Assembly: GCA_000004695.1 (NCBI GenBank)
Contig: CM000150.2
Span: 160,001 to 224,000 of the forward strand
Length of the DNA stretch: 64,000 nt
Reading direction: 5' to 3'
From: Dictyostelium discoideum
Lineage: Eukaryota
Position numbers and translations under genes: made by a program. A model generated the notes under the pieces. The model saw only the letters and a list, made by a program, of their open reading frames with translations. It was not told the DNA's origin and made no database searches. Positions 1,798 through 29,221 of the stretch are shown here, one piece after another. Every line of letters starts with the position of its first letter. The stretch's first letter is position 1.

Positions 1798-1836
<39 letters not shown>

Positions 1837-7221: not shown

Positions 7222-7224
7222 GAG

Positions 7225-8388: not shown

Positions 8389-9114
8389 TTATATATAAAA
8401 TTTATTAAATATAATTTAATTTTATAATTTAATTTTTTTATTTAATTTACATAATTTAATTATATAATTTAATTTAATTTATTTAATTTAATTTAATTTA
8501 ATTTTTAATTAAATAATTAAATATAAGTATTAATATATGTTAACTGTTATTCCACTAATATATTTTTATTGTGGTGTCTTTATATTATTTAATTGATAAT
8601 AAATATTATCTTAAATTATTTTAATTATAACAATGCATCAATATAACTGTTATTCCACTAATAATTTATATTGTGGTGTCTTTATTTAACTGTTATTCCA
8701 CTAATAATTTATATTGTGGTGTCTTTATTTAACTGTTATTCCACTAATAATTTATATTGTGGTGTCTTTGTTTAACTGTTATTCCACTAATAATTTATAT
8801 TGTGGTGTCTTTGTATTTGAGCATTATTATTAAATTAATTGATACAATCTTGTTTTATATTACTTTATAAAAGATGCATGTTTACAATGTGAGTAGGAAG
8901 TGTCGTTGTACCGCCTAAGCAGTACAGCGTTAATCTTGCAAACAGAAGGGCCATTGTAATGCATTTTTATTTTGTTTTAAATACTACTGTTATTCCTCTA
9001 ATCTGAAGAGTCGACTTCTTCATCATGAGGTGTCATTGTATACGAAATATAAGGATTGTATCTAATTATTTGTTTTAATGTATTTGTTTTATGTTAAAAT
9101 TAGAAAAAAAAAAG
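8389..9114 (-). repeat. Skipper 5' leader, including a 43-bp tandem repeat array (about 8640-8815, 4-5 units of aactgttattccactaataatttatattgtggtgtctttattt).
   Basis: Direct tandem units are seen in the sequence. The homologous leader in copy 3 (30645-30895) carries about 6 units. Confidence 0.7.
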
Positions 9115-9504
9115 TGTAAAAGTCACTCACACTAATCTTCAATCCATTGTCACATTTGTTCAATCTTTTATCAAACAGTCCAATCTTTAAAGTAATGTTT
9201 TTTAATATGAAGGATAGAAAGAGTGAAAGACTAATATCATAAAAGTAAACATACATAAAAGAGATAATTAAAAGTAAGGGCGTTATTCCAACTAAACCGA
9301 AAAATCAGAATTTTTATTATTTTTTTAAATTTTAATTTAATTTAATTTTTTTTAATTTAATTTTTTATTTTTTGACTGAAAAAATAAAAAATTAAAAAAT
9401 AAAAATAAAAATTAAATGAAATATTTTTACATGGAGATGCGCGAATTTGTTACGTTGTTGAGCTCATACTAACTTTAAATTAATTTAGTTTTGAGTCTCT
9501 AACA
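9115..9504 (-). repeat. Skipper LTR shared between copy 2 (as its 3' LTR) and copy 1 (as its 5' LTR).
   Basis: Identical to 2508-2897. A PPT at 9505-9522 is followed by the pol stop of copy 2. Confidence 0.8.
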
Positions 9505-9547
9505 CCTTCCCCTTCCTTCTTTAGGCTAGCTATGGCTCAGAGGTGGA

Positions 9548-12500
9548 CTATAAACTCTTGGGTGTAACTTTTCTTCCTGATCTAGTTGTTTTAATTTGTA
9601 AACTAAGATCAAGTTCATCATCATCACTTGAAGTATTTTGATTTCTTGATTTTCTTTTCTTTGATTGGTTTCTTTGATTTGAGATGGAGTTTTGTTGTCT
9701 TGGAGTAATTGGTTGCAATGTTTGAGAACTTTGAACTTCTTGGGAGAGTGGAGGTGACACAATTGGCTCAACGGCTTCTGTAGTTACATTCTCTCTTTCT
9801 CTTCTTGAGTTCAATTGTTTCTTCTGCACGTTATTCCAATACTCTCTGACTAACTCTTCACAGTCTGTATCGACTTCTTTGATCCATTCAGGTTCTGGGT
9901 AACCTTTGAACTTCACTAGGTACATCTTTTTGACTTTATCGTGATTGAGAATACTTTCAACTTCGTAACTTGCTTCGTCCATCTCCTCAGGTTCCGGCAT
10001 CGATATCTCTTCTCTTAACCACTCACTGTCCTCGTATAGTTTTACGATTTGATCTTTGTTGAACACATTGTGTTTCTTTGGATAACCTACTAAATCGAGT
10101 GTTACATTATTACCATGAACGGCAGTGATTATGAATGGTCCACAATTCTTGGATTCAAGTTTGTGAGAGATTAGATCTTTTGAAAGATTAGTTTGGAAGA
10201 ATTTTCTTTTAACCATCACCTTTTCTCCGACTACGAAGATAACATCACCACGACCTCGGTTGTAATACTTTTGAGCATTGATTTGAGCATCTAGTATATT
10301 ATCACGGACAATCTTTTTGATGTTGCTCATTGGTATACGAGTCTTTGTTAATGAATTGAAATGATTAACGGGAGTTGGTGGATTGAATCCATAAACGATT
10401 TGGAATGGTGACATCTTTGTAGACTTGCTCATTGATGAGTTCATTGCAAATTCAATAAGTGGAATGATATCTGACCAATTCTCCCCATACTCTGTTGAGG
10501 CTTTAGTTAATATTCTAATAATTTCTCTATTCATTCTTTCAGTTTGACCATCAGCTTGTGCTCTGTGTGCCACAGTCATCTTGAGTTTAGAATCCATCGT
10601 CTTTGCCCATCTCTCCCATATTTCTGAAAGGAATCTTGGATCTCTATCGGAGACGATTGTTCTTGGATAACCATGGAGTCTGAACACATGATTCAACAAT
10701 AATTGAGCGGTATGTTGGGCATCTATTGTCTTATGACATGGAACTATATGAACCATTTTAGATAATCTACAAACAATGACACAAACTTGATCGACTTCAA
10801 CTGTAAATCCGTTTATTGCATACATTGTTTTTGGTAGCGATAAGAAATCGATTGATATATCTCTCCAAACTTCAAAGGGAATTTCTAAACTTTGGAGTAT
10901 ACCATTATCTTTACGGTTAATGTTCAATTGACATGTTGCACAAGACTTTATGTACCTCTTGATAATAGAAAACATTTCTTTGAAATAGTAATCTTGTCTT
11001 ATATTATTGTATGTGATATCTAAAGCGTGATGACCACTATATTTGGTATCGTGATATTCTCTAATGACGGTATGAATAGTTTCTTTATCTATGATGATTA
11101 ATTTCTTGAACCCATCTTCACTAAGGTAACAGATATCATTAATTTCTTCAATGCATAAATTTGGATTCTTTTTCATCTCTAATAGCCATTGAGAATTGAT
11201 TTGTTCTTCCTTAATTTTATTTAAAAACGATTCATCCCATTGGAAATTATCATATTTACGAGATAAAAAATCAGCTATACCATTCTTTTTACCACTTATA
11301 TGTCTTAATTCATAATCAAATTCTTTAATATATTTCATATAATTATCTTGTCTCTTTGTGAACGGTTTATCGTTTGACTTATTGATAATATATGTAAGAT
11401 TTTGGTGATCAGTGTAGATTGAAACCTTTTTACCAATTAATAAATGTTGAAACTTCTTTAGAGAATCAATGATTGAAAGGAACTCTCTATCACCTATGCT
11501 GTACCTCTTTTGAGTATCAGTAAGTTTTCTACTGTGAAACCAAATGACTTTGAATTTATTACCTTGAATTTGATATAATACACCTGATAATGCTTTATCA
11601 CTAACATCACAATACAAGTGAAAACTACCATTGTTTAGATTATTATTATCTGAATGGATTGGCATGTCTGTTGATGCTTTAACCTTTTCGATATCTATTG
11701 GTATGGAGTTATCTTGTTCAATTGGAATAGCGACAATATTTTCACCTTCAAACTCTTTCTTTAGATTATTGAATTCTTTGAGTGATTCATCAGAAAGTGT
11801 TTTCTTGTTTTTTCCTTTTGATTCTTTGGAAAGGTGATAGGTTTTTTCAGCGTAATTTTCAATGTGTCTCCTGAAGAATCCAAAAAGACCTAATGCAGCT
11901 TCAGCTTCTTTGGCGTTTCTTGGTTCAGGTAACTCAGAGATAGCTCTAACCTTTGCAGCTCTTGGAGATATACCATCTTTATGAATGTGGAAACCAAGGA
12001 AATCTACTTCAGTCTTTAACATTTCACTCTTTTCTCTTGAAATGAATAATAGGTACTTTCTACAATATAGAAGCATTCTAATTATTTCAATGAAATGTAC
12101 CATGTAGTCGAGTTTTGAATGAACCAAAAGATCATCAAAGTATTGTAATAAACTTTTGATTTTTCCAAATATTTCGACCATCAATCTGGCGAATGTGGAT
12201 GGAGAGTTGACTAAACCTTGTGGCATTCTAGTATATTCAAATTTACCAATATGTGTAATGAAAGCGGTGTACTTTGCGTGTTCTGGATTAATTAACACTT
12301 GGAAATAACCCATAATCATGTCAAACTTTGAGAAAAGCTTTGAATCTTTACATTGATTTAAAAGACTATCAACCGGAGTGAATGGATGATCGTCTCTAAC
12401 AGTGACTTTATTTAGTTGACGATAGTCGTGGACTACACACCATGAATCTCTCTTCTTTAATAACATGATTGGAGATGAGTAATTTGATTCTGATCTTTTG

Positions 12501-13828
12501 ATAATACCTAAATCTATAAATTTGATAACCATTTCTTCGACATGTCTCTTATGATCATCTGTTGAATAATAGATTTGTTTCTTTGTTGGTTCAACATCTT
12601 GATCTTTCTTTATTATGATATTATGTATGATATTACCTCTTCTGGAATTGTTAATCTGATCTGGAATATCAGGAAGTTTATCTACTATAACATCTTCGAA
12701 TGAATCATTAATGAAATCACGTACTGCTTGTATCTCTTCTTCTTCTGGATTAGTTTTAACCAGTATATCACAAAGTTGTGATGGGATGCTTTCAACAAAC
12801 TTTGTAACTTGTTCTTTGATATCTTCATCATCATCTAGTAGATTATGTGACTGTGACTGATTATCATTGGATACGGTAACATGTTTTCTTGGAGCTTTTA
12901 CATTACAATGTAATTGATTCGACTGTTGATAATTAATTTTGTATGTACTGTTATTCAACTTGATTATTTTATCTTTTTGGTTAATGATAGAGTCCTTAAG
13001 GATATCATTACCGAAAAGTACATCAATGATATCCAATTCTATAATAAAGAAGTTATGAATTTCATTGTTAACTTGTATATTGATTTGTTCAACAAACTCT
13101 TCTTTGACGTCTAGTAGCGGGAAGTTAATCTTGGCTTTCGTTTTGTGAACGTGGTTCTTCATATCTTTTGAAATCAACCTCTTATTGATTAAACTAACAT
13201 TACTTCCAGTATCGAGAATTAATTTGAATTGTTTTTCTTTGGAATGAGAGTTAATTATAATCTTGGGTTTATCCATGTTTTCTCTGTTTGGAACGATTAA
13301 ACATTTTAGAGTCGGAATGAGAGCAGTATCACTTGTACCAGTACTATGTAATAATGAGATGATTGGTTTGTTTGTTTCTTTATCGAATTTAATTGTGTAA
13401 AGCAATTCATCTTCTTCATCATTAATTAATTCTTTACTAGAATTTAATATCTTTGGACGATTGAATATGTTAACAGTATAGTTTTTATCTTGAACATTTG
13501 TTAACTCTGTTGGAGTATTAAATTCAATCTTCTGTGGTTTATACTTCATCTCTGATTCAACAGCTTTTGGAATTGGAACGGTTGTATCAGGAACTAGTTT
13601 TATACCATATGAGTCTTTGACGTATTCTTTAAGTTTGTTGATGTTTTTATGAACATCATGTTGCTGGCTTTGTTGATGTAACTGTTTAACAATGTTTTGA
13701 TTATAAAAAGAGTTAAGAGTATAAAGTGAATCTTTGTTCACTGGGTAATCATTATCCTCAAGGTGATGATATTGTGAAATTTTATAATTTTTATTTAAAA
13801 TCTTTGACTTGGACTCATCACCTTCATC
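9548..13828 (-). CDS. pol: Skipper pol, copy 2.
   Basis: 1397 aa ORF almost identical to copy 1 (a few substitutions, e.g. R to C). Confidence 0.85.
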   Translation of the reverse strand, partial: DEGDESKSKILNKNYKISQYHHLEDNDYPVNKDSLYTLNSFYNQNIVKQLHQQSQQHDVHKNINKLKEYVKDSYGIKLVPDTTVPIPKAVESEMKYKPQKIEFNTPTELTNVQDKNYTVNIFNRPKILNSSKELINDEEDELLYTIKFDKETNKPIISLLHSTGTSDTALIPTLKCLIVPNRENMDKPKIIINSHSKEKQFKLILDTGSNVSLINKRLISKDMKNHVHKTKAKINFPLLDVKEEFVEQINIQVNNEIHNFFIIELDIIDVLFGNDILKDSIINQKDKIIKLNNSTYKINYQQSNQLHCNVKAPRKHVTVSNDNQSQSHNLLDDDEDIKEQVTKFVESIPSQLCDILVKTNPEEEEIQAVRDFINDSFEDVIVDKLPDIPDQINNSRRGNIIHNIIIKKDQDVEPTKKQIYYSTDDHKRHVEEMVIKFIDLGIIKRSESNYSSPIMLLKKRDSWCVVHDYRQLNKVTVRDDHPFTPVDSLLNQCKDSKLFSKFDMIMGYFQVLINPEHAKYTAFITHIGKFEYTRMPQGLVNSPSTFARLMVEIFGKIKSLLQYFDDLLVHSKLDYMVHFIEIIRMLLYCRKYLLFISREKSEMLKTEVDFLGFHIHKDGISPRAAKVRAISELPEPRNAKEAEAALGLFGFFRRHIENYAEKTYHLSKESKGKNKKTLSDESLKEFNNLKKEFEGENIVAIPIEQDNSIPIDIEKVKASTDMPIHSDNNNLNNGSFHLYCDVSDKALSGVLYQIQGNKFKVIWFHSRKLTDTQKRYSIGDREFLSIIDSLKKFQHLLIGKKVSIYTDHQNLTYIINKSNDKPFTKRQDNYMKYIKEFDYELRHISGKKNGIADFLSRKYDNFQWDESFLNKIKEEQINSQWLLEMKKNPNLCIEEINDICYLSEDGFKKLIIIDKETIHTVIREYHDTKYSGHHALDITYNNIRQDYYFKEMFSIIKRYIKSCATCQLNINRKDNGILQSLEIPFEVWRDISIDFLSLPKTMYAINGFTVEVDQVCVIVCRLSKMVHIVPCHKTIDAQHTAQLLLNHVFRLHGYPRTIVSDRDPRFLSEIWERWAKTMDSKLKMTVAHRAQADGQTERMNREIIRILTKASTEYGENWSDIIPLIEFAMNSSMSKSTKMSPFQIVYGFNPPTPVNHFNSLTKTRIPMSNIKKIVRDNILDAQINAQKYYNRGRGDVIFVVGEKVMVKRKFFQTNLSKDLISHKLESKNCGPFIITAVHGNNVTLDLVGYPKKHNVFNKDQIVKLYEDSEWLREEISMPEPEEMDEASYEVESILNHDKVKKMYLVKFKGYPEPEWIKEVDTDCEELVREYWNNVQKKQLNSRRERENVTTEAVEPIVSPPLSQEVQSSQTLQPITPRQQNSISNQRNQSKKRKSRNQNTSSDDDELDLSLQIKTTRSGRKVTPKSL

Positions 13829-13831
13829 GAG

Positions 13832-14493
13832 TCATTGTTGCTTTTTGGCTGATGGACCTGGATTGGCTTTGGCATCGACCGGATCAATTCTACATGTAGA
13901 TGTGGAGTGATTTGATTTACCACAATTGAGACAGTAGCCTTTGTTTTGACGGTAAACGATGAAACTGCTTCTTATCTTTTTGAGGTCTACCTTAGAGTCT
14001 TTTCTTATTTCGGGTAATATTGCAGCTCTAATCTTATCAGCTTGAGCATCAAAGGAATTCCTGTTATGAGAGTTATGATTTGGAGTAGCATGATTCTTTT
14101 TTAATAGAAACTTCTCATCAGTATTCGATGCAGAATCGGAAGGTCTTCTTCTCGAGAACTTATCAGCATTGTTAAGAACCAACTCGGTGATGGCTTCACG
14201 ACACTCGGTGATATCGGTTTGAGTGTTGAGTTTGATTGCAACATCAGTTTGTAACCAGTCTGGTACGACCATCTTTAACAAAGCAAGGATATTATTATCT
14301 AAAATTGATCTTAGATACTCTAATTGAACTTCAGCAGTACCATGGATGAGATACACCGGATTAATTACATTGTGGTAACTCATAATGGCTTCGATGTTTT
14401 TTATAACATCTTGGGCTGAGTAGCAGTTACGATGGTTAATAGCTTCGACTACTTTAGTGTTGGCAGCTTCGTAGTCAGTTTTGAATGGAACCA
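13832..14493 (-). CDS. gag: Skipper gag, copy 2, N-terminally truncated by an assembly gap.
   Basis: The C-terminal 220 aa are identical to gag copy 1. The ORF runs into the N run. Confidence 0.7.
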
Positions 14494-14593
14494 NNNNNNN
14501 NNNNNNNNNNNNNNNNNNNNNNNNNNNNNNNNNNNNNNNNNNNNNNNNNNNNNNNNNNNNNNNNNNNNNNNNNNNNNNNNNNNNNNNNNNNNN
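14494..14593. other. Assembly gap (100 N).
   Basis: Run of N characters. Skipper gag lies on one side and DIRS-1 ORF1 on the other. Confidence 0.99.
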
Positions 14594-15476
14594 TGGCATT
14601 ACTATTGCTACTGTTTCCTGTAGTGTTATTACCACTTGAGTTAACTGATTTCTTGACATTGGACTTGGAATGATAATTCAATTTTAACAATGATTGTTTA
14701 GCTTCGTTGTTCTTTCTGATTGACTTGGCTAGCTTTCTTACACGTTCAGTTTCAGTTTCATCAAACATCTTTGGTGTATCCTTGATCTTAATTGGTAAGA
14801 GTACTTCAGAACCATAGATTTCTTTAGCGATGTTGTTACGACGGACACGACTAAGCGATGCTTGAGCATTAACGGCTAAGACGATTGCACTCTGAGTTAA
14901 ATAACTAATAAGTTCTACATCGACATTAGAGCTATCAGATGATAACATACTTGACATGAGAAGCAAAGGTTTTAAGCTATCGTTGATTCGCTTTTCGACA
15001 ATCAACAAGTCAGTATCATTGTTCTTGACGTTGGATGATACAGAAATACCTTCAGGTGTACCGAATGGAGCGACATTCACTTGGATGTGAGATGGAAAGT
15101 TGAATACTTTATTCAATGCGGATATCTTATCTTTCTTGAGTACATTCTTCGACAAGTGAAAACCTATTGTTTACCATATGTTTGTACTGACCAAGTAAAG
15201 TATCGGATAATTGATAATCGGTTGGAACATCGACATTGTTACTTGATTCATCTTCACTTTGTTCATTCTCGGTGTCAGAGTTATCATGAGAAGGTTGGCT
15301 ACGTGAATTGGTATTATATGAGAACATAGGTTCTTTCATGAATCTAGTAAAGGCTAAGGAAAGGTTGTTGATTTGATCCTCCATTGATTTCATTCTTAAA
15401 TCAAAGGATTCAGCGCTATTAAAGGCAGAGGTATTGCTACTAAAGGCTTCATATTATTATTATCAGTGGTAGACAT
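14594..15476 (-). pseudogene. DIRS-1 ORF1 (gag-like) carrying a frameshift. Its 3' end runs into the gap.
   Basis: The ATG at 15476 opens MSTT(D)NNN...MKSMEDQINNLSLAFTRFMKEP...HMVNN, then a frame break near 15160, then VAPFGTPEGISVSSNVKNNDTDLLIVEKR... This is homologous to the ORF1 copies at 18462 and 24608. Confidence 0.7.
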
Positions 15477-15918
15477 ATTTTATTGTTGATATCTAAAATT
15501 ATAATATGAGAAAAATAATAATATTAAAAATTTATAAAGAGAAATAATTATTTGTATAAAATTTGTGTGTGTGTGTATCTTAAATATATATAGGAGGAAT
15601 TCCCAAATAAAAATTGTTTTTAGTTTTTAGTGCTACTATTTATACGTTTTTATTTTCTTAAAAATTTCGCAAAACTCAAAAAAATAAGAGTTTTCGACCC
15701 TTCACAACTTTGTGCATAGTGTCGGTTCGGAATTTTTCAGTTTTTCGACCTTGCGCAATGATCGCGTCATTGTGCCGGTTCGAAATTTTTACTTTTCTTT
15801 CGAAAATTTTTTATTCTTCGAATGTTCTAGAACATTCTAAAAAATTATCTTAAATATTTGGGAAATTCAAATAAATAAATGTTATTCATAATATATATAT
15901 ATATATGATAATATAAAA
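15477..15918 (-). repeat. DIRS-1 left inverted terminal repeat (copy A).
   Basis: About 97% identical to 18011-18461 and 24156-24607, including the conserved gggtcgaaaa.../ttttcgacc heat-shock-element-like block and the outer end ttatattatcat. Confidence 0.8.
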
Positions 15919-17455
15919 GACTGATCAATACCCATCACTAATTTACCATTAGGGCAGGGGATCTCACGGATACTAGATTGCGCAAAACTTCCCGTATTCT
16001 CATCAATAAGAAGATATGTGGTGATTGTATCCACAGTGGGGGCTGGGATGGTCCCAATGCCGTGTTCCAGGCCTGATAAAACTTATCAGAATTAGAACCG
16101 CCATCTTGCACAACTATCGCTGGTGTTAATGTAGCAGCCGCAACAAACAACCCTTGATCAAATTTTAATCTATTTCCTGCCTTCGCACTAATACGCACAT
16201 CTCAACTATCGGAAGCAGGACCCGCCATCATATTTAAAATGATAGGTGTGCCGCCATCTTCCATGTACGCTATGAGTGTTGCGTTCTGAATTGTAGGACC
16301 TAGTGCACCATTACCGTAAGCTTGAATGAACTGGCCCTTAGGGGTAGGAATACCGTTATCGCGCCTGGAGCTGATAATATTTCGTTGTCCGTAACATCCT
16401 GTTTCGTGTAAGCCGTGTGAGTAGCCACTGATACTTTGGGTGCTGTAAAGACGTCTTTCACAATGTCATTAATCTCTGCAGCGGTCACAACACCGCCCTG
16501 GATAACTTCCTCTATGTCTGGTAATCCTCCGTTACCACCACCACCGCCCGCTAATGCGATTATATCGCCTAACGTTGCTTTCCTTAAGGCTAATCGTCCA
16601 TCTTCATTTAGTTGGGAAATCGCAACAATCTCCTGACCCGTTATAGTTTGAGCTGCTGGTAATGTAGAAAATTTAACAGCCATAATAACGCTCCATAATT
16701 CAACCGATTTAAATGCTAAAATATCAATATATTGCAATGGTCAAAGCATGGGGTTTTATAGGAGCCCTACTAGACTCTCTCGTTTAAACTTTATACACTA
16801 CTTATTATTATTGATTTAAAAATGAGTGCAGGACTCATTAAGGCTTGCACAGGGAATTGAACCCCAATCCACGTTATCGTTGGTGGCTCTAGGCCGCTGT
16901 GAGCTACATACATTCTGTCAGAAAGGTAACCTACGTCCCTCCAACTTTAACGCACTCTATTGTTGAGCTATACAAGCATAACATAAATGACCCAGCCTCG
17001 CAGTATTTATTACATTCGCAGCGGCGATGCACGCCTAACCACACAGTTTATGAACCCACTAGATTATCAGATCCCGACTGGAAGTTTTGTCACGAACTCT
17101 ATTGTAGGGTAATTAATCCTACGGTCAAGCCGTCTACCAATTAGTTAAGTACCTAGTAAATGTTCAACGATTAAGACATCATCCTCTGGACTCAGTCCGT
17201 ATCTGTTCTTTGCGTGTCTGGCTATTACTGGCTTATTTGTTTGCAGTGGGTCTTTGCTATCATCGCTGAGACTTGGATGATAAAAATACCAACCAAGTCT
17301 TGTTCACCGCTCCACGTATAAGGGGAAAATATTGTCTCCTCAAGACAGCCCGAAGGTAGTCGGTGGCTAACCACAGCCCAACTCACCTTTTGCTCAGGAT
17401 TTACCCTAAAAGGCTATTAACTTTATAACCTCATCTTTGAGTGCGATTAGCTTTC
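15919..17455. other. GC-rich (about 48-50% GC) segment of bacterial or phage-like composition, sitting between a DIRS-1 ITR terminus and a DIRS-1 RT fragment.
   Basis: Abrupt compositional shift. The ORFs 16300..16737(-) and 15938..16198(-) use enterobacterial-style codons (CTG, GCG, CGT) and carry a G-rich GGGGGNGG tract. A tRNA T-arm-like motif gggttcaattccc sits near 16835-16870. Confidence 0.5.
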
Positions 17456-18010
17456 CTTTTAAACCAGCAAGCTTTCTTGGGGAGCAACAATCTAGTTTTA
17501 AAAGTTTCTTATTTCCTTGATGACACTTTTCTTCTTTTCTTTGGGAACAAGAAGCTTCATTGATTTTGAATCGATTTGTAATCCGAGAAATGTAATTGAT
17601 TGAGTTGGTTCAAGAACAATCTTTTCTAGATTCAGCTTGAAACCTAGTTTGACAAGTAAGTCCATTGTCTTTTTGAGGTTGGATAAACATTCTTCTTTTG
17701 TTGAACCGACGATTAATAGATCGTCCAAGTAAGCGATTACGGACACGTTGATATCTCTCAACATTCGAAGTACATGTCTTAACAACATTGTAAAGATACG
17801 AGGAGCTGTCGATAACCCGAACGGCATTGTTTTCCAACGGTAGTGCGAACCTTTCCACACGAAGCGGAATAAGTCTCTGTATTGCGGATCTACTAAAACG
17901 TGGAGGTAGGCTTTCTTGATATCGAGTTTTACCATGTAATAACCTTGTTTGACCATTGACGGTAGATTCTTGATTCCTTCCATCTTGAATGATTGGTTGT
18001 TGATGTAAGT
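17456..18010 (-). mobile_element. DIRS-1 internal fragment (start of ORF2: RT with YLDD).
   Basis: ORF 17498..17983(-) reads MEGIKNLPSMVKQGYYMVKLD...IAYLDDLLIVG. Homology to DIRS copy C breaks at about 17455. Confidence 0.75.
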
Positions 18011-18461
18011 GTTTATTTATATTATCATATATATATATATTATGAATAACATTTATTTATTTGAATTTCCCAAATATTTAAGATAATTTTTTAGAATGTT
18101 CTAGAACATTTGAAGAATAAAAAATTTTCAAAAGAAAAGTAAAAATTTCGAACAGGCACAATGACGAGATAATTGCGCAAGGTCGAAAAACATAAAAATA
18201 CCGAACCGACACAATGCACAAATTTGTGAAGGGTCGAAAACACTTATTTTTTTGAGTTTTGCGAAATTTTTAAGAAAATAAAAACGTATAAATAGTAGCA
18301 CTAAAAACTAAAACAATTTGATTTATTTTATTTGGGAATTCCTCCTATATATATTTAAGATATACACACACACAAATTTTATACAAATAATTATTTCTCT
18401 TTATTAATTTTTAATATTATTATTTTTCTCATATTATAATTTTAGATATCAAAAATAAAAT
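18011..18461 (+). repeat. DIRS-1 left ITR (copy B).
   Basis: Matches the other ITR copies and is directly followed by the ORF1 ATG at 18462. Confidence 0.8.
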
Positions 18462-18929
18462 ATGTCTACAACTGTTAATAATAATTATACCTCTAGTAGT
18501 AGTACCTCTGCCTCTAATAGCGCTGAATCCTTTGATTTAAGAATGAAATCAATGGAGGATCAAATCAACAACCTTTCTTTAGACTTTACAAGATTCATGA
18601 AAGAACCTATGTTCTCATCTAATACCAATTCACGTAGCCAACCTTCTCATGATGATTCTGACACTGAGAATGAACAAAGTGAAGATGAATCAAGTAACAA
18701 TGTCGATGTTCCAACCGATTATAAATTATCCGATACCTTACTTGGTCAGTACAAACATATGGTAAACAATCAAGGTTTACTCGTCGAAGAAGAATGTATC
18801 CTCAAGAAAGATGAGATATCCGAATTGAATAAAGTATTCAACTTTCCATCCAACTTCCAAGTCAACGTCGCTCCATTCGGTACACCTGAAGGTATTACTG
18901 TATCATCCAACGTCAAGAACAATGATTAA
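18462..18929 (+). CDS. DIRS-1 ORF1 (gag-like), copy B. The element is truncated after it.
   Basis: 155 aa reading MSTTVNNN...VAPFGTPEGITVSSNVKNND. Unrelated AT-rich DNA follows 18930. Confidence 0.7.
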   Translation: MSTTVNNNYTSSSSTSASNSAESFDLRMKSMEDQINNLSLDFTRFMKEPMFSSNTNSRSQPSHDDSDTENEQSEDESSNNVDVPTDYKLSDTLLGQYKHMVNNQGLLVEEECILKKDEISELNKVFNFPSNFQVNVAPFGTPEGITVSSNVKNND

Positions 18930-19574
18930 TGTAAAAAAATAAAAAAAAATAATAAAAAAAATGAAACCATAAAACATAAATAAAATGATATGTTTTATTT
19001 TTTAATTTAATTTTGTATAAATATTTGTGAATACAATGAGAAATAATATACCGGGTTACACTGAATTATATAAATAATAACATAATCTTTCTGAAAAACT
19101 TATTAATTTTTTTTTTTTTTTTTTTTTATTTTTTTATTTTTTTTTTTTTTAGTAATTGTTGACTAAAACCTATAAATATTTTCATTTATGTAACTACTGT
19201 ATTCTAAACTTAACTATAATTATATATTTGATATGTGTTTATTAATAATTTACCATTATAAATTGTAAAATAATTTTTAATTTTTTTTTTTTTTACCTTT
19301 TTTTTTATCTTTAATTTTTTTTTATCTTTTTTTTTTAACCTTTTTTTTTTATCTTTTTTTAACCTTTTTTTTATCTTTTTTTTTTTTTTTCTAAAATATT
19401 ATTGCTACATTTGTTGTTAAAAAAAAATAGGAATTTTATTTTTTTTTTATATTTTTTTTCATCACACATTCACAAACATGCTTTATTTTTTAAAAAAAAA
19501 ATATTTAAATTAAAAAAACATGCTTTATTTTTTTTTACAAAAATAAATTTTTTTTTTTTTATTTTTTTTTTTAA

Positions 19575-20290
19575 ACCTATAAACACAGCAAAGAAAAATG
19601 CACCTTTAAAGCAAATTTAAAGTAAAGTTGATTTAAATTGGATTTAAATTGAATTTAAAGCCGCGTTTAAAAAATTCATTTTTAAGGTAATTTTTAAGGT
19701 AATTTTTAAGATATTTAAAAATGCCTTTAAAATTTGCTTAAAAATTTATTTTAAAGGTAATTTTAAAGGTGATTTTTAAGGTAATTTTTAAAATGATTTT
19801 TAAGATATTTAAAAATACCTTTAAAATTTATTTTAAATTAATTTTAAATAGGATTTAAAGTAGATTTAAAGTAGATTTAAAGTGAATTTAAATTTCCTTA
19901 ATATATAAATTTAAGGTTTTTAATAAAAAAGATCTAATTATAGATAAAAAAAATGGGGATAAAATATTCTATCATTTTTAAATTTTCATCAAAGCAATCA
20001 AATGGTCGGGGGATCGAATCCCTTTTGGTAATTTTTGAAAAAATTAAAAAAAAAAAATTTAAAAAATTTATCCGTTAAATAACGGCTTCGAACTCAGGAC
20101 CTCGCTTTTAAAGCGATTAAAAAGGTAATTTTAAAGGTAATTTTAAAGGTAATTTTAAAGGTGATTTTAAAGTAACCTTAAAAATTACCTTTCAAATTAC
20201 CTTTAAAATTGCTTTAATTCAGGACTTTAAAGCAAATTTAAATTTAATTTAAAGCGAATTTAAAGGTGGTTTTTTCTTTGCTGTGAAATA
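19575..20290. mobile_element. Non-autonomous MITE-like derivative of the CACTA-like element (about 716 bp). Termini are CACAGCAAAGAAAAATGCACCTTTAAAGCAAATTTAAA and its reverse complement; subterminal repeats are present, and an internal tRNA-like module is deletion-bearing.
   Basis: Perfect terminal inverted repeat seen directly (19575 cacagcaaag ... 20290 ctttgctgtg), flanked by AAA/AAA. Partial copies occur at 20636-21191, 32762-33135, 35500-35920 and 37640-37920. Confidence 0.65.
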
Positions 20291-20635
20291 TTTTGCTTTT
20301 TTTTTTTTTTTTTTTTTTTTATTATTTTTTTTTACCAACACATAACGACTCTTCCTTACTTATAATATATAAGCAAATAACATTAAAAAAATTGTTAAAT
20401 TATTTACATAACTTTTACGTAAAAACGAACGGATTTTTATTTTTATTTTTATTTTTTTTCAATTTTTTTTTTTTTTGTTTCGGTTATTATTTTTCAGACT
20501 TAAATTATTATTTATAAATTAAATATAAAAAATAATATTGCATCATCTGGAAATGGTAATTATTTAAATTGATATTATCCAACTTCGCTTATTTTAAATA
20601 AAAATGAAACTGCACTAAATCAAAACTGGTAAGGT

Positions 20636-21191
20636 AAGATGATTTTTAAGGTAATTTTTAAGATAATTTTTAAGATATTTAAAAAATACCTTTAAAATTT
20701 ATTTTAAATTAATTTTAAATAGGATTTAAAGTAGATTTAAAGTATATTTAAAGTGAATTTAAATTTCCTTTAAGTATAAATTTAAGGTTTTTAATTAAAA
20801 AGATCCATTTTTAGATCAAAAAAATGGGGATAAAATATTCTACCATATTTAAATTTTCATCAAAGCAATCAAATGGTGTAATGGTTGATGAGACTATCCT
20901 TTGATAGAGGGTCGGGGGATCGAATCCCTTTTGGTAATTTTTGAGAAATTAAAAAAAAAAATTTTAAAAAATTTATCCGTTAAATAACGGCTTCGAACCC
21001 AGGACCTCGCTTTTAAAGCGATTAAAAAGGTAATTTTAAAGGTAATTTTAAAGGTAATTTTTAAGGTGATTTTAAAGTAACCTTAAAAATTACCTTTAAA
21101 ATTACCTTAAAAATTGCTTTAATTCAGGACTTTAAATTCGCTTTAAATTAAATTTAAATTTGCTTTAAAGGTGGTTTTTTCTTCGCTGTGT
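20636..21191. mobile_element. 5'-truncated copy of the same MITE-like element, ending in ...GGTGGTTTTTTCTTCGCTGTG.
   Basis: Collinear with 19700-20290 and contains the full 73-nt tRNA-like module. Confidence 0.6.
20865..20937 (+). ncRNA. tRNA-like pol III module (73 nt) carried inside the MITE. It has an A-box-like TGGTGTAATGG, a B-box/T-arm GGGGGATCGAATCCC, an Ile-type anticodon stem-loop (ATCCT TTGATAG AGGGT), and a T5 terminator right after it. The acceptor stem does not pair, so I read it as tRNA-derived, not a bona fide tRNA.
   Basis: Seen in the sequence. Copies lie at 19994-20031 (internally deleted) and 33018-33090 (minus strand, anticodon loop TTAATAG). Confidence 0.4.
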
Positions 21192-21897
21192 TAATGCCGA
21201 TTTTTTTCATTTTTTGTTTTGTTTCTAATTTTATTTTGAGGATTTGAAAAATCTTGTTTATTTGGTTTTGAATTGTGAAAGTCAATAATATCTTTTTGAT
21301 TTCTAAAATTTCCTTCTTTTAATAAATAATCGACACCTCTTGGTTTATCACATGTATGACATGAGAAATCATTGCAATTATAATGGTTAATCCTACAAGA
21401 TGATCTAAATTCTGTTATATGCATTGTTAATCCATATGGTATAATTTCATAATCATTTTCATTATTATCTTTAATTTTTAATTTATTATTAAATTGCGCT
21501 GAAAATAATTTTTTAATTGTTTGATGTATATTGTGAAACCATTCTTTTGGAACAATAAAAAAAACAATTTTATTATTTTTAAAAAATGGACCAACATAAT
21601 TTTCAAAATCTACCAATAATGTATAATCTGATCTACCTTGATGACTCATTCCTTCACTAAATATTCTTAATAAAATAAATTTATATAAAATTGAATTTTT
21701 TATTTTATTAAACTGTTCTCCAGATTTATAATTTTTATAAATACCTTGCTCATAGTCTTTTGAGAAATCTAAATATTCTAAAAAATTTTTTTTTTCAATT
21801 AATAATTTAACAACTGAATAAATTTCAAAATAAAAAATTGACTCTTCATTTGTAACTCAAAAAGTGACCATCGATAGGTAAATTTGCTAAAAATATA
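21192..21897 (-). pseudogene. Frameshifted fragment of the C2H2 zinc-finger ORF family (homologous to the C-terminal half of 35959..36984), lying between two facing CACTA-like termini.
   Basis: ORF 21191..21649(-), plus an upstream frame that reads ...SIFYFEIYSVVKLLIEKKNFLEYLDFSKDYEQGIYKNYKSGEQFNKIKN...LLRIFSEG. This aligns with ...SIFYFEIKKVLETLLNKKQFFERIDFDTDFETGIYTNYKSGQQFKDLKN...LLRIFTDS of the 36984 gene. Termini sit at 21182-21191 and 21898-21907. Confidence 0.5.
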
Positions 21898-22569
21898 GAA
21901 TCCATACACAGCGAAGAAAAAACCACCTTAAAAGCAAATTTAATCTAAAAAAAAAACAAAAAAAGTATTATTTTAGATTTCTTCAACTTCATCAATAATA
22001 TCAATGCTTTCAAAACCAATCACCAGTTCTTTTAAAATAAATTGATACTACAATTAAATAATAGCTGGTAAGTTAATATAATTTTTTTTTAAAAAAAAAA
22101 AAAATTAAAAAAAAAAAAAAAATAAATAATAATAATAAAATAAAATAGATAGACTAATTTGAAAAATAATAATTATATTTTAGGTTACCTTTCTTATTAT
22201 ACCAACAACCACTTCTTTTCAATCAAATTGATACTTCACTTATATAATAACTGGTAAGTCAATATAATTTTTTTTTTTTAAAAAAAAAATAATAATATAA
22301 AATAAAGAGATTAATATAATTTAAACAATTATATTTTAGGTTGTTTCTTCTTTTATTAGAACCTGTAAAGTAAATGCTTTTGGTACAAATTATAATGGAA
22401 ATAAAGTTCTGCTTTTCAAATTAGTCAATTATAAATGTTGTATTACCATTAAATAAAAAAAATTTCTGATTTCAAATACTTTTACTTTTTAATTAATTCT
22501 TTTTTTTTTTTTTTTTTTTTTAAATTTATTTTAAATTATTATTATAAAATGTTATTTTTAATTTTTATT

Positions 22570-22870
22570 TTTAAGTATTCTTATTAAGTGAACTTTATAA
22601 TTACCCTTAATAATTACCCTTATTAATTATAATTAATAATTCCACTTAATAGTTATACTTAATAATTATACTTAATAATTTTAATTATTAATTATATTTT
22701 ATTATTATACTTAATAATTATGCTTAATAAATATACTTTTTAATTATACTTAATAAATATACTTAATAAATATACTTTTTAATTATACTTATTAATTATA
22801 CTTAATAAATATACTTAATAATTATACTTAATAATTATACTTAATAAATATACTTATTAAGTATACTTAA
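22570..22870. repeat. AT-rich minisatellite with units of about 13-15 bp (tatacttaataa[at]tat).
   Basis: Direct tandem repetition seen in the sequence. Confidence 0.7.
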
Positions 22871-22904
22871 TAATAGTACTATTTACGTTCCTACTTTAAA
22901 GATG

Positions 22905-24155
22905 CTTTTAAGTATTTTTTTTCGCCCCTGTGGAGATTAACACCCTCATTTAGGGGATGTCTTGACCAGAACACAGGTTATCCCCTTATTTTTTCTTTTA
23001 ATTCAATGGAGGAATGTCATGCCATGTAAACCTTTTGATTTTGGTAACAGGACAAAACGCACTGCAGCGGTCGATAAAGCCAAGCGAGTTGCTAATCCAA
23101 TTCGTCGTACTCAGTTACTGAAGAAGATTCGTTAATGACTGATCGGAAAGTCAGCATCGCTAGAATGGTAGATTGTCGTTGAGATGCAGGGCGTAAAGCC
23201 CAGCTATTGGCAAAGATGTAAGCGGCTTAAGAGCCCCTAATTAGTATCCGCGGTCACGGCCGCACATCCTAGCCTATGGGCTCACACCAATGCGTAATAT
23301 GGTAGCAAAAATCATGTCAGATGAAGACATCCCAGATCATGATACCCGTACATGGTATTGTCTCCAGTATCCAATAACCTCAATCTGCCATCAAACCAAA
23401 TTATAATATTTAAAAAAAAAAATTTGAATCTCAAAAATCATTTTCTAGATCTGAAAAAACCCACTTAAATTATTATTAAATTACTATTTTTTTTAATAAT
23501 TTAGTAAATAGATATTTTAAGTCATAAATTAAGCGATAAAATCTATTTTTTTGGTTAACCAGCATAGTCTAGGTGTTTATCTATTTAATATGTTTTTTGT
23601 GGATAATAAAGCATATTTCAATCACTAATGATATTTATTAAATTTATTAAATTTGTTTATTTTTTTTTTCCGTGATGGAAAATGGTAAGACCATTAGTTC
23701 GTTCTGCATTGCCCATTACATCACCACTTCTTACATGTCAGCGTCTGGTGAAGTTACGCTGGGTGATGCAGCCGATAAAGAGACACAGTTCGCTATTAAC
23801 TCGACTGGATCGATTAATATGTAAGCGCCACGTTTTGTTCTGAAGGGTATTCGGGATGAGAGAACACCTGTTTTTGAATGCTCATGAATTATCCAGCATA
23901 GTATGTGGAATTCTATAGACCCTATTACCAGAAATACGACCACGGAAGATCTTGGTTCGCAACGCGTTTGCTGAAGTGGTTCACACACAACTATCCAACA
24001 GCGGTGATTGATGTGGTTAAGTCCGTGGCCCTGGTTCTTGTTAAACATCGCGATTTGATTGGTAACCCATCATTCATTGACACAGAGTGGTTTTTGGATG
24101 GTGAGTGTTTGCGTCATCTTAATAACGCACTGGTCATGGAAAACGAACCGGTTTA
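22905..24155. other. Second GC-rich bacterial or phage-like segment (with a short AT-rich stretch at about 23400-23680), ending exactly at the outer terminus of the DIRS-1 copy C ITR.
   Basis: About 47% GC with enterobacterial-style codons. A small ORF at 23027..23143 (+) reads MPCKPFDFGNRTKRTAAVDKAKRVANPIRRTQLLKKIR, and ORF 23905..24189 (+) reads ...ATRLLKWFTHNYPTAVIDVVKSVALVLVKHRDLIGNPSFIDTEWFLDGECLRHLNNALVMENEPVY. I cannot name the protein family. Confidence 0.5.
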
Positions 24156-24607
24156 TTTATATTATCATATATATATATATATATTATGAATAACATTTAT
24201 TTATTTGAATTTCCCAAATATTTAAGATAATTTTTTAGAATGTTCTAGAACATTCGAAGAATAAAAAAAATTTTCCAAAGAAAAGTAAAAATTTCGACCC
24301 GGCACAATGATGCGATAATTGTGCAAGGTCGAAAAACTGAAAAATTCGGAACCGACACTATGTACAAAGTTGTGAAGGGTCGAAAACTCTTATTTTTTTG
24401 AGTTTTGCGAAATTTTTAAGAAAATAAAAACGTATAAATAGTGGCACTAAAAACTAAAACAATTTGATTTATTTTATTTGGGAATTCCTCCTATATATAT
24501 TTAAGATACACACACACACAAATTTTATACAAATATTTATTTCTCTTTATTAATTTTTTATATTATTATTTTTCTCATATTATAATTTTAGATATCAACA
24601 ATAAAAT
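24156..24607 (+). repeat. DIRS-1 left ITR (copy C).
   Basis: Matches the other two ITR copies, with the ORF ATG at 24608. Confidence 0.8.
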
Positions 24608-26469
24608 ATGTCTACCACTGTTAATAATAATGATGCCTCTAGTAGTAGTGCCTCTGCCTCTAATAGCGCTGAATCCTTTGATTTAAGAATAAAATCAATG
24701 GAGGATCAAATCAACAACCTTTCTTTAGCCTTTACAAGATTCATGAAAGAACCTATTTTCTCATCTAATTCCAATTCACGTAGCCAACCTTCTCATGATA
24801 ACTCTGACACCGAGAATGAACAAAGTGAAGATGAATCAAGTAACAATGTCGATGTTCCAACCGATTATCAATTATCCGATACCTTACTTGGTCAGTACAA
24901 ACATATGGTAAACAATCAAGGTTTACTCGTCGAAGGAATCAAGAATCTACCATCAATGGTCAAACAAGGTTATTACATGGTAAAACTCGATATCAAGAAA
25001 GCCTACCTCCACGTTTTAGTAGATCCGCAATACAGAGACTTATTCCGCTTCGTGTGGAAAGGTTCGCACTACCGTTGGAAAACAATGCCGTTGGGGTTAT
25101 CGACAGCTCATGGTATCTTTACAATGTTGTTAAGACCTGTACTTGGAATGTTGAGAGATATCAACGTATCCGTCATCGCTTACTTGGACGATCTATTAAT
25201 CGTCGGTTCAACAAAAGAAGAATGTTTATCCAACCTCAAAAAGACGATGGACTTACTTATCAAACTAGGTTTCAAGTTAAATCTAGAAAAGAGTGTTCTC
25301 GAACCAACTCAATCAATTACGTTTCTCGGATTACAAATCGATTCAAAATCAATGAAGCTTCTTGTTCCCAAAGAAAAGAAGAAAAGTGTCATCAAGGAAA
25401 TAAGAAACTTTTTAAAACTAGATTGTTGCTCCCCAAGAAAGCTTGCTGGTTTAAAAGGAAAGCTAATTGCACTGAAAGATGCAGTTATCCCATTCAGACT
25501 TTACACTCGTAGAACAAACAAGTTTCACTCTCAGTGTCTGACTCTAGCCAATGGAGATTGGGATCAATCATTCCCCATTCCTCAAGAGGTCAAGTCAGAG
25601 ATTTCACATTGGTTAACAGTTCTAAACCAATGGAATGGAAAAGAAATCAGTCTGTTTCCAAGTTACGACTATGTTCTTACAACCGATGCCTCGGAATCAG
25701 GTGCAGGTGCCACTCTCAAGAAAGGAAACAAGGTAATCAAAACTTGGTCATTCCAGTGGTCAACAACTCAATCAAACATGTCGTCAAATCGTCGAGAAAT
25801 GCTCGCGCTGCTAATGGCCTATCAAGCGCTATGTCAGAAACTGAACAACTGCAAGCTGAAGATTCAAACCGACAACACTACCACTCTCTCTTACATCAAT
25901 CGCCAGGGTGGTCAGATACAGGATCTCTCAGTTCTGTTCGAACAACTTTGGAAACAATGCCTCAAGAAGAAAGTGAACTTGATTGGAGAGCATATTCCAG
26001 GATTCTTCAATGTAAAAGCCGACCACCTCAGTCGTCTTTCAGAGATGAATCACAAATCATCGTCCAGAGTAATCAAGAGTTACAACTGGCAACTGAAGAA
26101 GGAAGTGTTCAATCGCATCCAACTTCAATTCGGTCAAATACAGATGGATCTGTTCGCATCTCACTTCAACCATCAAACGAACAACTACTCAACAATCAGA
26201 ATGAATGCACTCCACCTCGATTGGAGTCAATGGAAGCAATGTCTGGCCTTTCCACCACCCATTCTTTTGCCTTCTATCCTGGAGAAGATGAACTCATCCA
26301 GTTCGAAGAAGGTTTCTATAATACTGATCTTCCCAATCTGGAGATCAGCAACTTGGTATCCGATGATTCAAGCTCAAGTTCCTCGTCATCATCGTCACAT
26401 GTTTCCTCAAGTACTGGGAACATTCCAAGAAGTATTGACCAAACAATCAGTAGAGTCGATACCAATCCA
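24608..26469 (+). CDS. DIRS-1 ORF with an in-frame internal deletion that fuses the ORF1 N-terminus (about 105 aa) to RT (YLDD), RNase H (TDAS...E...D) and downstream domains. It runs into the assembly gap.
   Basis: 620 aa are readable: MSTTVNNN...HMVNNQGLLVE|GIKNLPSMVKQGYY...IAYLDDLLIVG...VLTTDASESGAGA...IQTDNTTTLSYINRQGG...ADHLSR. Copy B carries another 45 aa of ORF1 after LLVE. Confidence 0.75.
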
Positions 26470-29218: not shown

Positions 29219-29221
29219 GAG

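What the first reader, a model, noticed from the sequence alone, without database searches (positions are those of the whole stretch)
15919..17455. Bacterial/phage-like GC-rich segment 1 wedged between DIRS-1 fragments
A 1.5-kb block of about 48-50% GC sits inside about 25% GC amoeba DNA. Its ORFs use codons typical of enterobacteria (CTG, GCG, CGT, CCG) and include a glycine-run protein (..ALAGGGGGNGGLPDIEEVIQGG..). It starts precisely at the outer terminus of a DIRS-1 ITR (15918/15919) and ends at a breakpoint inside a DIRS-1 RT fragment (17455/17456). It contains a tRNA T-arm-like motif (gggttcaattccc) of the kind found at phage or ICE attachment sites. There are two possibilities: real horizontally acquired DNA trapped in a DIRS-1 (centromere-type) cluster, or a chimeric-clone or contaminant artefact in a poorly assembled repeat region.
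Basis: seen in the sequence. Interest (0 to 1): 0.7.

Follow-up and report, generated by a model that had tools for sequence, protein, structure and literature searches.

The report
Dead phage tail-fibre gene fragment in amoeba DNA
A 1.5-kb piece of bacteriophage DNA, carrying a broken and truncated tail-fibre-like gene and a broken tRNA-like sequence, sits between DIRS-1 retrotransposon fragments on Dictyostelium discoideum chromosome 1; it is most likely inert ingested DNA and not host-bacterium contamination, but independent reads are needed to prove that it is really in the genome.

Summary
The block is real, but its details need correcting. The unique segment is 15918-17424, about 30 bp shorter on the right than reported. 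Its GC is 43.5%, not 48-50%. Its codon usage is not enterobacterial (CTG 0, CCG 0, GC3 36%).

On the minus strand, a gene with a conserved GGAG ribosome-binding site starts at 16683. It runs to the DIRS-1 ITR terminus through two 1-nt deletions in C-runs and one TGA. Once repaired, its 256 codons are 53% identical to residues 1-255 of P0002. P0002 is a 453-aa protein on a 118-kb jumbo-phage-like contig (Logan SRR13790903), and it is the only relative found among billions of proteins.

The 'T-arm motif' belongs to a tRNA-like relic at 16842-16977. It becomes a callable tRNA only after a 64-nt insert is removed, and there is no att-type duplicate. E. coli genomes, phage, plasmid, GTDB, IMG/VR and JGI collections hold nothing near-identical. 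The window is D. discoideum AX4 chromosome 1, where this locus is annotated as the spliced gene model DDB_G0267332.

The best reading is a genuine, old, decaying insertion of phage DNA in a transposon cluster (about 0.65). An assembly or cloning artefact remains possible (about 0.2). Interest is modest.

The parts
15015..15917 (+). Right-hand end of a DIRS-1 copy, ending in its inverted terminal repeat. The outer terminus lies at about 15917-15923.
   Evidence: It is repeated at 24156-24377 and 18016-18231 in reverse orientation at 94.5-95% identity. All three copies end at the same point and then continue into unrelated DNA.
15919..16683 (-). Phage tail-fibre-like pseudogene: the N-terminal ~256 of ~453 codons, starting at the ATG at 16683-16681. 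There are 1-nt deletions in C-runs at 16347-16348 and 16038-16042, and a TGA replaces a Ser codon at 16202-16204. The 3' part is cut off by the DIRS-1 ITR.
   Evidence: tblastn and blastn against L001 follow three successive frames: 16701-16324, 16381-16040 and 16040-15930. The repaired translation is 53% identical to P0002 residues 1-255. HMMER gives E 3.5e-27 for the first ORF alone. It is 34% identical over 67 aa to PhiEaH1 gp080 'tail fiber protein' (E 5e-8). A codon model trained on L001 genes recovers the same three frames.
16691..16694 (-). Shine-Dalgarno GGAG, 7 nt upstream of the ATG, within a block conserved with the phage homologue (TGAAnTATGGAGnGTTATnATGG).
   Evidence: Alignment of the two upstream regions; sequence read directly.
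16842..16977 (-). tRNA-like relic. It has a 7-bp acceptor stem, a D arm, a 5-bp anticodon stem and a canonical T arm (GGGGTTCAATTCCC), but a 64-nt insert sits at the 5' side of the anticodon loop and position 33 is C. The insert itself holds a second D-arm-like stretch (GTAGCTCACAGCGGCCTAGAGC).
   Evidence: ARAGORN at default settings calls tRNA-Val(AAC) only after the 64 nt are removed. It is not called otherwise, and Rfam finds nothing. The T-loop consensus is unique in the window. Caution: relaxed ARAGORN settings give 0.45 hits per shuffled segment.
16978..17424 (-). Unassigned remainder of the foreign block (41.7% GC for the whole 16684-17424 stretch). It shows a weak minus-strand coding signal at about 17394-17147, in two frames. 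This may be the 3' end of a second, decayed gene cut by the right junction.
   Evidence: The codon-model scan scores near 0 here, against -10 to -38 in the other frames. Its dinucleotide signature is closest to the ORF half of the block. No homologue was found by 6-frame tblastn against phages, or by PHROGs, Pfam or the word-index search.
17425..17983 (-). Internal DIRS-1 reverse-transcriptase fragment. The breakpoint with the foreign block lies at about 17425-17431.
   Evidence: 95.7% identical to 25212-25488 of the DIRS-1 copy at 24151-26469. RVT_1, E 7.5e-26.

Best explanation
The block is a 1.5-kb fragment of DNA from a large tailed bacteriophage, or from a phage remnant in a bacterium. 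It became inserted into a retrotransposon cluster on Dictyostelium discoideum chromosome 1 and is now inert.

Shown:
- The fragment carries, on the minus strand, the first ~256 codons of a tail-fibre-like gene with its bacterial ribosome-binding site.
- That gene is disabled by two 1-nt deletions and one stop codon.
- It is truncated exactly where a DIRS-1 inverted terminal repeat ends.
- Upstream lies a broken tRNA-like sequence, followed by about 450 bp of unidentified DNA of the same composition, cut off by a DIRS-1 RT fragment.

Inferred:
- The amoeba eats bacteria. Phage or bacterial DNA that escaped digestion was joined into a chromosome break inside an existing DIRS-1 copy (the right junction).
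- A later DIRS-1 insertion removed the gene's 3' half (the left junction).
- The sequence has since decayed neutrally by roughly 2-3%, too little to lower its GC content visibly.
- It does nothing. The annotated spliced gene model DDB_G0267332 is an artefact of gene prediction across the frameshift.
For: Locus identity: the only hit in the 5.8-billion-protein index is DDB_G0267332 of D. discoideum AX4, on a 4,923,596-bp contig. That protein is a spliced reading of this same DNA.

Phage origin:
- An exhaustive HMMER search finds P0002 (E 3.5e-27), which lies on a 118-kb Logan contig.
- That contig has densely packed same-strand genes, including a head-maturation protease (Peptidase_S80, phrog_3014), a Peptidase_S74 tail-fibre chaperone domain, ThyA and GyrA.
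- It also has an ATPase whose best matches are 277-307-kb jumbo phages of Ralstonia and Klebsiella.
- Homology covers the whole repaired gene, at 53% over about 252 aa, plus the ribosome-binding-site block.
- The gene matches PhiEaH1 gp080, annotated 'tail fiber protein'.
- The N-terminal motif is shared with P0004 and P0006, which carry PHROG tail-fibre domains.

Genuine insertion:
- The left junction is at the terminus common to three ITR copies.
- Both junctions lie in one gap-free 11.9-kb stretch.
- There are three disabling lesions in 770 bp.
- The flanking DIRS-1 pieces are themselves old, about 5% diverged, and the neighbouring RT fragment has its own frameshift.
- GC1 and GC2 equal those of the phage homologue, so the lower GC3 reflects donor codon bias and not decay.

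Not a host or vector contaminant.
Against: - No independent data set was available to confirm the junctions. Exact-product look-ups for five reading frames of this locus found nothing, but so did a control amoeba ORF, so they are uninformative.
- The region is a manually reconstructed repeat cluster with 100-N gaps 1.3 kb to the left and 9 kb to the right (PMC2665215).
- Both frameshifts are single-base losses in homopolymer C-runs, which is also the signature of sequencing error.
- GC content shows no shift towards the host's 22-27%.
- Only one homologue exists anywhere, so the direction and age of the changes cannot be inferred.
- Half of the block (16684-17424) has no identified homologue.
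Confidence: 0.65

Rival explanations
1. Assembly or cloning artefact. A fragment of contaminating phage or bacterial DNA was ligated between two DIRS-1 fragments in a shotgun clone, or was mis-joined during the manual reconstruction of this repeat cluster. On this view the frameshifts are read errors and the block is not in the amoeba chromosome.
For: The region has 100-N gaps nearby and was reconstructed by hand from read pairs and unique sites (PMC2665215). Both frameshifts are 1-nt losses in C-runs. GC content has not shifted towards the host. The 1.5-kb size could be spanned by the two end-reads of one small-insert clone (inference).
Against: It needs two chimeric junctions, not one. One of them falls within about 5 nt of the true DIRS-1 ITR terminus, a chance of roughly 0.2% for a random shear point in a 4.8-kb element (inference). 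The TGA is a substitution, not a homopolymer error. There is no match to any E. coli genome, sequenced phage, plasmid or GTDB genome, and a jumbo-phage relative is an unlikely contaminant of an axenic culture. The genome project's coverage of about 8x (own knowledge) makes three errors in 770 bp unlikely.
Confidence: 0.2
2. The insertion is real, but the donor was a bacterial chromosome and not a free phage. In this case the donor segment was a cryptic prophage remnant lying next to a tRNA gene, already frameshifted in the food bacterium or symbiont before transfer.
For: The arrangement, a tRNA-like sequence 160 bp upstream of a tail-fibre gene, resembles prophage ends at tRNA genes (established knowledge). 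The gene upstream of P0002 in the phage contig is not conserved here. Pseudogenes are common in cryptic prophages.
Against: No relative was found in 185,579 species-representative bacterial and archaeal genomes. The only homologue is on a lytic-type jumbo-phage-like contig, and jumbo phages commonly carry their own tRNA genes (own knowledge). There is no integrase and no att-type repeat.
Confidence: 0.2
3. A domesticated, functional amoeba gene (DDB_G0267332) of phage origin, expressed through splicing that bypasses the frameshift.
For: A spliced 176-aa gene model exists in the reference annotation.
Against: The model begins inside the tRNA-like relic and joins pieces so as to skip the first frameshift, then ends at the TGA (compare). 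The homology to P0002 continues in other frames beyond the model's end. The gene is truncated by a transposon, keeps a bacterial ribosome-binding site, and has no homologue in any other eukaryote.
Confidence: 0.03

Closest known systems
P0002, an uncharacterised 453-aa protein on Logan contig SRR13790903_41 (118 kb, jumbo-phage-like)
   Same: 53% identical over residues 1-255. It has the same start, the same ribosome-binding-site block, the same glycine run (ALAGGGG.GGLP) and a similar GC (46.6% against 45.3%).
   Different: P0002 is intact and 453 aa long. The amoeba copy has two frameshifts and a stop, and lacks the last ~200 codons. The neighbouring genes differ.
Erwinia phage PhiEaH1 gp080 'tail fiber protein' (Iapetusvirus, 218 kb), with related hits in Serratia phage PCH45 and Erwinia jumbo phages
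   Same: One shared module: query residues 104-170 match gp080 residues 181-246 at 34% identity, E 5e-8. P0002 matches the same region at 47%.
   Different: gp080 is 1292 aa long with many other fibre repeats. Only this one module is shared, so this is domain-level relatedness and not orthology.
Bacterial genes acquired horizontally by D. discoideum (the candidates listed with the genome paper; own knowledge) and, more broadly, the 'you are what you eat' model of gene transfer to phagotrophs
   Same: Prokaryote-type DNA in the nuclear genome of a bacterivorous amoeba.
   Different: Those cases are intact, expressed genes with host-like composition. This one is a non-functional, truncated fragment that keeps bacterial signals and donor composition, and it comes from a phage structural gene.
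Organelle-DNA insertions (NUMT/NUPT-type 'filler' DNA captured at chromosome breaks)
   Same: A short piece of non-nuclear DNA, inserted without target specificity and decaying as a pseudogene inside repeat-rich DNA. This is the mechanism I infer here.
   Different: The donor here is a phage or bacterium, not an organelle. The capture mechanism is inferred, not shown.

Membership tests
Phage tail-fibre proteins (P0002 / PhiEaH1 gp080-like module) | Significant sequence homology to proteins of tailed phages that are annotated, or profile-classified, as tail fibres | tested here: met
   E 3.5e-27 to P0002 on a phage contig. E 5e-8 to gp080, 'tail fiber protein'. The N-terminal motif is shared with P0004 and P0006, which hit PHROG tail-fibre and minor-tail families. 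The pseudogene translation itself hits no Pfam or PHROG model.
Phage tail-fibre proteins (P0002 / PhiEaH1 gp080-like module) | Intact full-length reading frame | tested here: not met
   Two 1-nt deletions, one TGA, and loss of about 200 C-terminal codons at the DIRS-1 ITR.
Genuine horizontally acquired DNA in a eukaryotic chromosome | Clear non-eukaryotic affinity of the sequence | tested here: met
   The only homologues are phage proteins, the bacterial ribosome-binding site is conserved, and there is no eukaryotic homologue apart from the locus itself.
Genuine horizontally acquired DNA in a eukaryotic chromosome | Physical continuity with host DNA on both sides | tested here: met
   Both junctions lie within the gap-free stretch 14594-26469. 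The left junction is at the authentic ITR terminus. This holds only at the level of the assembly.
Genuine horizontally acquired DNA in a eukaryotic chromosome | Independent confirmation: spanning long reads, PCR, or presence in other strains | not testable with these tools
   Look-ups by exact product found nothing, either for five reading frames of this locus or for a control amoeba ORF.
Cloning-host, vector or food-bacterium contaminant | Near-identity (>99%) to E. coli, a known phage, a plasmid or a sequenced bacterium | tested here: not met
   No blastn match in E. coli genomes, phages or plasmids. No relative in GTDB genomes, IMG/VR or JGI metagenomes. Klebsiella was tested only through its GTDB representatives and its phages.
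tRNA gene serving as a phage or ICE attachment site | An intact tRNA gene | tested here: not met
   ARAGORN at default settings and Rfam find none. A cloverleaf appears only after 64 nt are deleted, and it has C33.
tRNA gene serving as a phage or ICE attachment site | A duplicated tRNA 3' segment (attL/attR) and an adjacent integrase | tested here: not met
   The 24-nt 3' segment occurs once in 64 kb even with 3 mismatches allowed. No integrase-like coding was detected in the block.
DIRS-1 retrotransposon (the flanks) | Inverted terminal repeats with a shared terminus; an ORF with RT, RNase H and DNA methyltransferase domains | tested here: met
   Three ITR copies share one terminus. RVT_1 + RT_RNaseH + Dam in 24608-26569, and RVT_1 in 17501-17983. 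The tyrosine recombinase was not detected by Pfam in the overlapping ORF.

The most novel reading that the evidence does not exclude
This is a genuine germ-line capture of jumbo-phage DNA by a bacterivorous amoeba, preserved in a centromere-type transposon cluster. That would make it one of very few relics of a phage structural gene in a eukaryotic nuclear genome. It would also be a direct snapshot of the 'you are what you eat' transfer route before any domestication, with the bacterial ribosome-binding site and a tRNA remnant still recognisable. A more speculative extension, not excluded by the evidence, is that the exact ITR-terminus junction reflects DIRS-1 tyrosine-recombinase activity on the foreign DNA.
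Probability: 0.6. Interest if true: 0.45.

Novelty: new member of a known kind. Interest (0 to 1): 0.35.

Why it matters
If the insertion is real, it shows that raw phage DNA can reach and become fixed in the nuclear genome of a phagotrophic eukaryote, and that transposon-rich heterochromatin can hold such fragments as neutral fossils. It would be a dated, non-selected example of the first step of prokaryote-to-eukaryote gene transfer.

In practice, it shows that the reference gene model DDB_G0267332 is not a gene but a phage pseudogene read across a frameshift.

If the block is an artefact, it flags a foreign sequence in the reference chromosome 1 of a model organism. Either way the biological consequence for the amoeba is probably nil.

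Tried and rejected
- **E. coli, phage or plasmid contaminant.** blastn in 'distant' mode found nothing. tblastn of the first ORF against phages also found nothing.
- **rRNA, rDNA-palindrome cap or another known RNA.** No Rfam hit, even at E<=10.
- **Intact tRNA or tmRNA.** None. The second 'unit' suggested by a 14-nt repeat at 17092-17105 does not align or fold like a tRNA. The tRNA-like stretch has no blastn match in phages.
- **Attachment-site duplication.** None.
- **More relatives of the gene.** The word-index searches found only the locus itself and P0002 itself. IMG/VR, GTDB and JGI scans found none. Pfam, PHROGs and PDB sequence searches found nothing.
- **Identity of 16684-17424.** The 6-frame tblastn against phages, PHROGs, Pfam and the last word-index search all came back negative.
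- **Independent assemblies carrying the junctions.** Look-ups of the annotated protein and of five ORFs of the locus, one of them spanning the left junction, all came back empty. A control amoeba ORF was also absent, so these negatives carry no weight.
- **Block 22886-24150 as the missing 3' half of the gene, split off by a DIRS-1 insertion.** No similarity to P0002 or L001, and no minus-strand coding signal.
- **Promoter and terminator scans.** At chance level.
- **Literature.** Nothing on this locus, the SRA run, or phage DNA in Dictyostelium.

Full report
**Where we are.**
The only hit for the block's reading frame in the 5.8-billion-protein index is DDB_G0267332, a 'hypothetical protein' of Dictyostelium discoideum AX4 on a 4,923,596-bp contig, which is chromosome 1. 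That 176-aa protein is a spliced reading of this same DNA. The left half of the window is a transposon cluster. Its dominant repeat is an LTR element with an RT-RNaseH-integrase polyprotein (Skipper-like). The pieces next to the finding are DIRS-1, shown by an RT + RNaseH + Dam-methyltransferase ORF and shared inverted terminal repeats. The right half holds ordinary amoeba genes. Two 100-N gaps lie at 14494-14593 and 26470-26569, so the finding sits in a gap-free 11.9-kb stretch.

**The observation.**
A self-comparison of the window shows that 15918-17424 (1507 bp) is single-copy. DIRS-1 ITR homology ends at 15917, and DIRS-1 RT homology begins at 17425. A direct alignment puts the right breakpoint at about 17425-17431, some 25-30 bp left of the reported 17455/17456.

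Three ITR copies end at the same point, within about 5 nt, and then run into unrelated DNA. The left edge is therefore the authentic DIRS-1 terminus.

GC is 43.5% overall: 45.3% in the gene half and 41.7% in the rest. The window averages 27.4% and the flanks about 32%. Only the best 200-nt windows reach 47-48.5%, and the richest DIRS-1 internal 1.5 kb reaches 41.3%.

The codons said to be typical of enterobacteria are not there: CTG 0, CCG 0, CGT 2. Leucine is mostly TTA, and GC3 is 36%.

**What the gene is.**
The minus strand has an ATG at 16683, preceded by GGAG at a spacing of 7 nt. The open frame reads MAVKFSTLPAAQTITGQEIV...ALAGGGGGNGGLPDIEEVIQGG. It stops at 16300, but the coding sense continues in two other frames down to the ITR.

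Standard searches found nothing. These were Pfam, PHROGs, tblastn against 50,697 phage records, IMG/VR, and blastn against 5,426 E. coli genomes and 72,556 plasmids.

The exhaustive HMMER scan of 1.84 billion cluster representatives found one true relative, P0002 (453 aa, E 3.5e-27). It also found two short proteins that share the N-terminal motif.

tblastn against the P0002 locus follows the amoeba sequence through three frames: 16701-16324, 16381-16040 and 16040-15930. DNA identity is 65% over 572 bp.

Relative to P0002, the lesions are these:
- a lost C in TTCC(C)TACC at 16347-16348;
- a TGA where P0002 has Ser, at 16202-16204;
- a lost C in a C-run at 16038-16042.

Once repaired, the 256 codons are 53% identical to P0002 residues 1-255. 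The homology stops where the ITR begins, so about 200 codons are missing. The 20 nt around the ribosome-binding site are also conserved between the two loci. A codon model trained on the phage contig's genes recovers the same three frames independently.

**What the relative is.**
P0002 lies on a 118-kb contig assembled from SRA run SRR13790903; 21 kb of it is held here as L001, with 46.6% GC. Its genes are densely packed on one strand. They include a Peptidase_S80 / phrog_3014 head-maturation protease, a Peptidase_S74 domain protein, thymidylate synthase and a GyrA-like protein. An ATPase on the contig has its best matches, at 44-47% identity, in 277-307-kb jumbo phages of Ralstonia, Klebsiella and Serratia.

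P0002 itself matches jumbo phages of Erwinia and Serratia. One matched protein is PhiEaH1 gp080, annotated 'tail fiber protein' and confirmed as such by PHROGs. The repaired amoeba sequence aligns to gp080 directly, at 34% over 67 aa, E 5e-8. P0004 and P0006, which share the N-terminal motif, carry PHROG tail-fibre or minor-tail domains.

The gene is therefore a tail-fibre-like gene of a large tailed phage lineage that has almost no sequenced members.

**The T-arm motif.**
GGTTCAATTCC occurs once in the window, against 0.1 expected. It belongs to a 136-nt stretch on the same strand as the gene, 160 nt upstream of it. That stretch has a perfect acceptor stem, a D arm, an anticodon stem and a T arm, but a 64-nt insert sits in the anticodon region.

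ARAGORN at default settings calls tRNA-Val(AAC) only after the insert is removed, and position 33 is C where tRNAs almost always have U (the U33 rule is own knowledge). At default settings neither ARAGORN nor Rfam reports anything. The relaxed settings needed to see it give 0.45 hits per shuffled segment.

I read it as a broken tRNA-derived sequence, which fits a large phage since these often carry tRNA genes (own knowledge). There is no support for an attachment site. No second copy exists in 64 kb, even with 3 mismatches allowed, and no integrase was found.

**The rest of the block.**
16978-17424 has no homologue by any search. It shows a weak minus-strand coding signal in two frames. Its dinucleotide signature is closest to the gene half of the block and far from DIRS-1, Skipper and the amoeba genes. 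With only about 750 bp per half, that signature comparison is noisy. It is probably the decayed 3' end of a second phage gene, but this is unproven.

**Real insertion or artefact.**
The named artefact test, near-identity to a cloning host or food bacterium, fails. Nothing similar exists in E. coli, sequenced phages, plasmids, species-representative bacterial genomes, IMG/VR or JGI metagenomes.

Four points favour a real insertion:
- One junction is at the exact DIRS-1 terminus, as expected if a DIRS-1 copy inserted into DNA already present. A random ligation would rarely produce this.
- Two junctions are needed, and both lie in one gap-free contig.
- The gene has three disabling lesions, one of them a substitution.
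- The flanking DIRS-1 pieces are themselves about 5% diverged from their sister copies, and the RT fragment has its own frameshift. The whole neighbourhood therefore looks old.

The unchanged GC content is not a strong objection. Three disabling lesions imply only a few per cent of neutral change (a rough inference). GC1 and GC2 equal those of the phage homologue, while GC3 differs in the way donor codon bias would.

Three points count against:
- The cluster was reconstructed by hand from read pairs (PMC2665215).
- Both frameshifts are in homopolymers.
- I could not obtain any independent reads. Exact-product look-ups were empty both for this locus and for a control amoeba ORF.

I put a genuine insertion at about 0.65-0.75 and an artefact at about 0.2.

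**Mechanism proposed.**
Most of this is inferred. A bacterivorous amoeba took up phage DNA, or bacterial DNA holding a phage remnant. A fragment was joined into a break within a DIRS-1 copy; this is the right junction, inside the RT. A later DIRS-1 integration cut off the 3' half of the tail-fibre gene; this is the left junction, at the ITR terminus. The fragment has since drifted neutrally. It has no function, and DDB_G0267332 is a prediction artefact.

**Verdict.**
The phage origin is supported, while the enterobacterial codon usage and the attachment-site idea are not. This is a new example of a known kind of thing: foreign DNA fossilised in a eukaryotic repeat region. Its interest is modest, and long reads or PCR are needed to confirm that it is really in the chromosome.

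Noticed in passing
window 22886-24150: A second single-copy, relatively GC-rich block (37.9% GC, with an AT-rich core at about 23400-23640). It abuts the outer terminus of another DIRS-1 ITR at 24156. It has no long ORFs. There was no hit to phages (6-frame tblastn), to L001, or to Pfam or PHROGs. Its dinucleotide signature is nearer to the phage-like block and L001 than to DIRS-1 or Skipper. It may be a second foreign fragment, but its identity is unknown.
   Followed up: partly
window 14494-14593 and 26470-26569 (also a single N at 31308): Two 100-N assembly gaps. The gap-free contig between them begins inside the right end of one DIRS-1 copy and ends inside the left part of another. The order and orientation of this 11.9-kb island relative to its neighbours therefore rest on scaffolding.
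   Followed up: partly
window 1165-14493 and 26570-33236: The dominant repeat here is not DIRS-1. It is an LTR-type element (Skipper-like) with a 1397-aa RT-RNaseH-integrase ORF and a 387-aa ORF, in head-to-tail copies 6607 bp apart.
   Followed up: partly
window ~17490 (within 17425-17983): Compared with the copy at 25212-25488, the DIRS-1 RT fragment next to the block has its own 1-nt deletion in an A-run. This creates the stop that ends ORF 17498-17983.
   Followed up: yes
window 15882-16913 (gene model DDB_G0267332): The reference annotation's 176-aa protein starts inside the tRNA-like relic (MYVAHSGLEPPTITW...). It splices around the non-coding spacer and the first frameshift, and it ends at the TGA. 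It is a gene-prediction artefact laid over a phage pseudogene.
   Followed up: yes
window 33516-35500: A stretch with extreme AT skew (+0.34 to +0.56). It holds a 444-aa ORF (33516-34850, plus strand) with no Pfam match.
   Followed up: no
L001 (Logan SRR13790903_41, positions 36014-57375 of 118,137): A jumbo-phage-like contig with no close sequenced relative. It encodes an RNA 2'-phosphotransferase domain (PTS_2-RNA), an RlaP nucleotidyltransferase, ThyA, a GyrA-like protein and a tRNA-synthetase-like fragment. P0002 has no homologue other than the amoeba pseudogene.
   Followed up: partly
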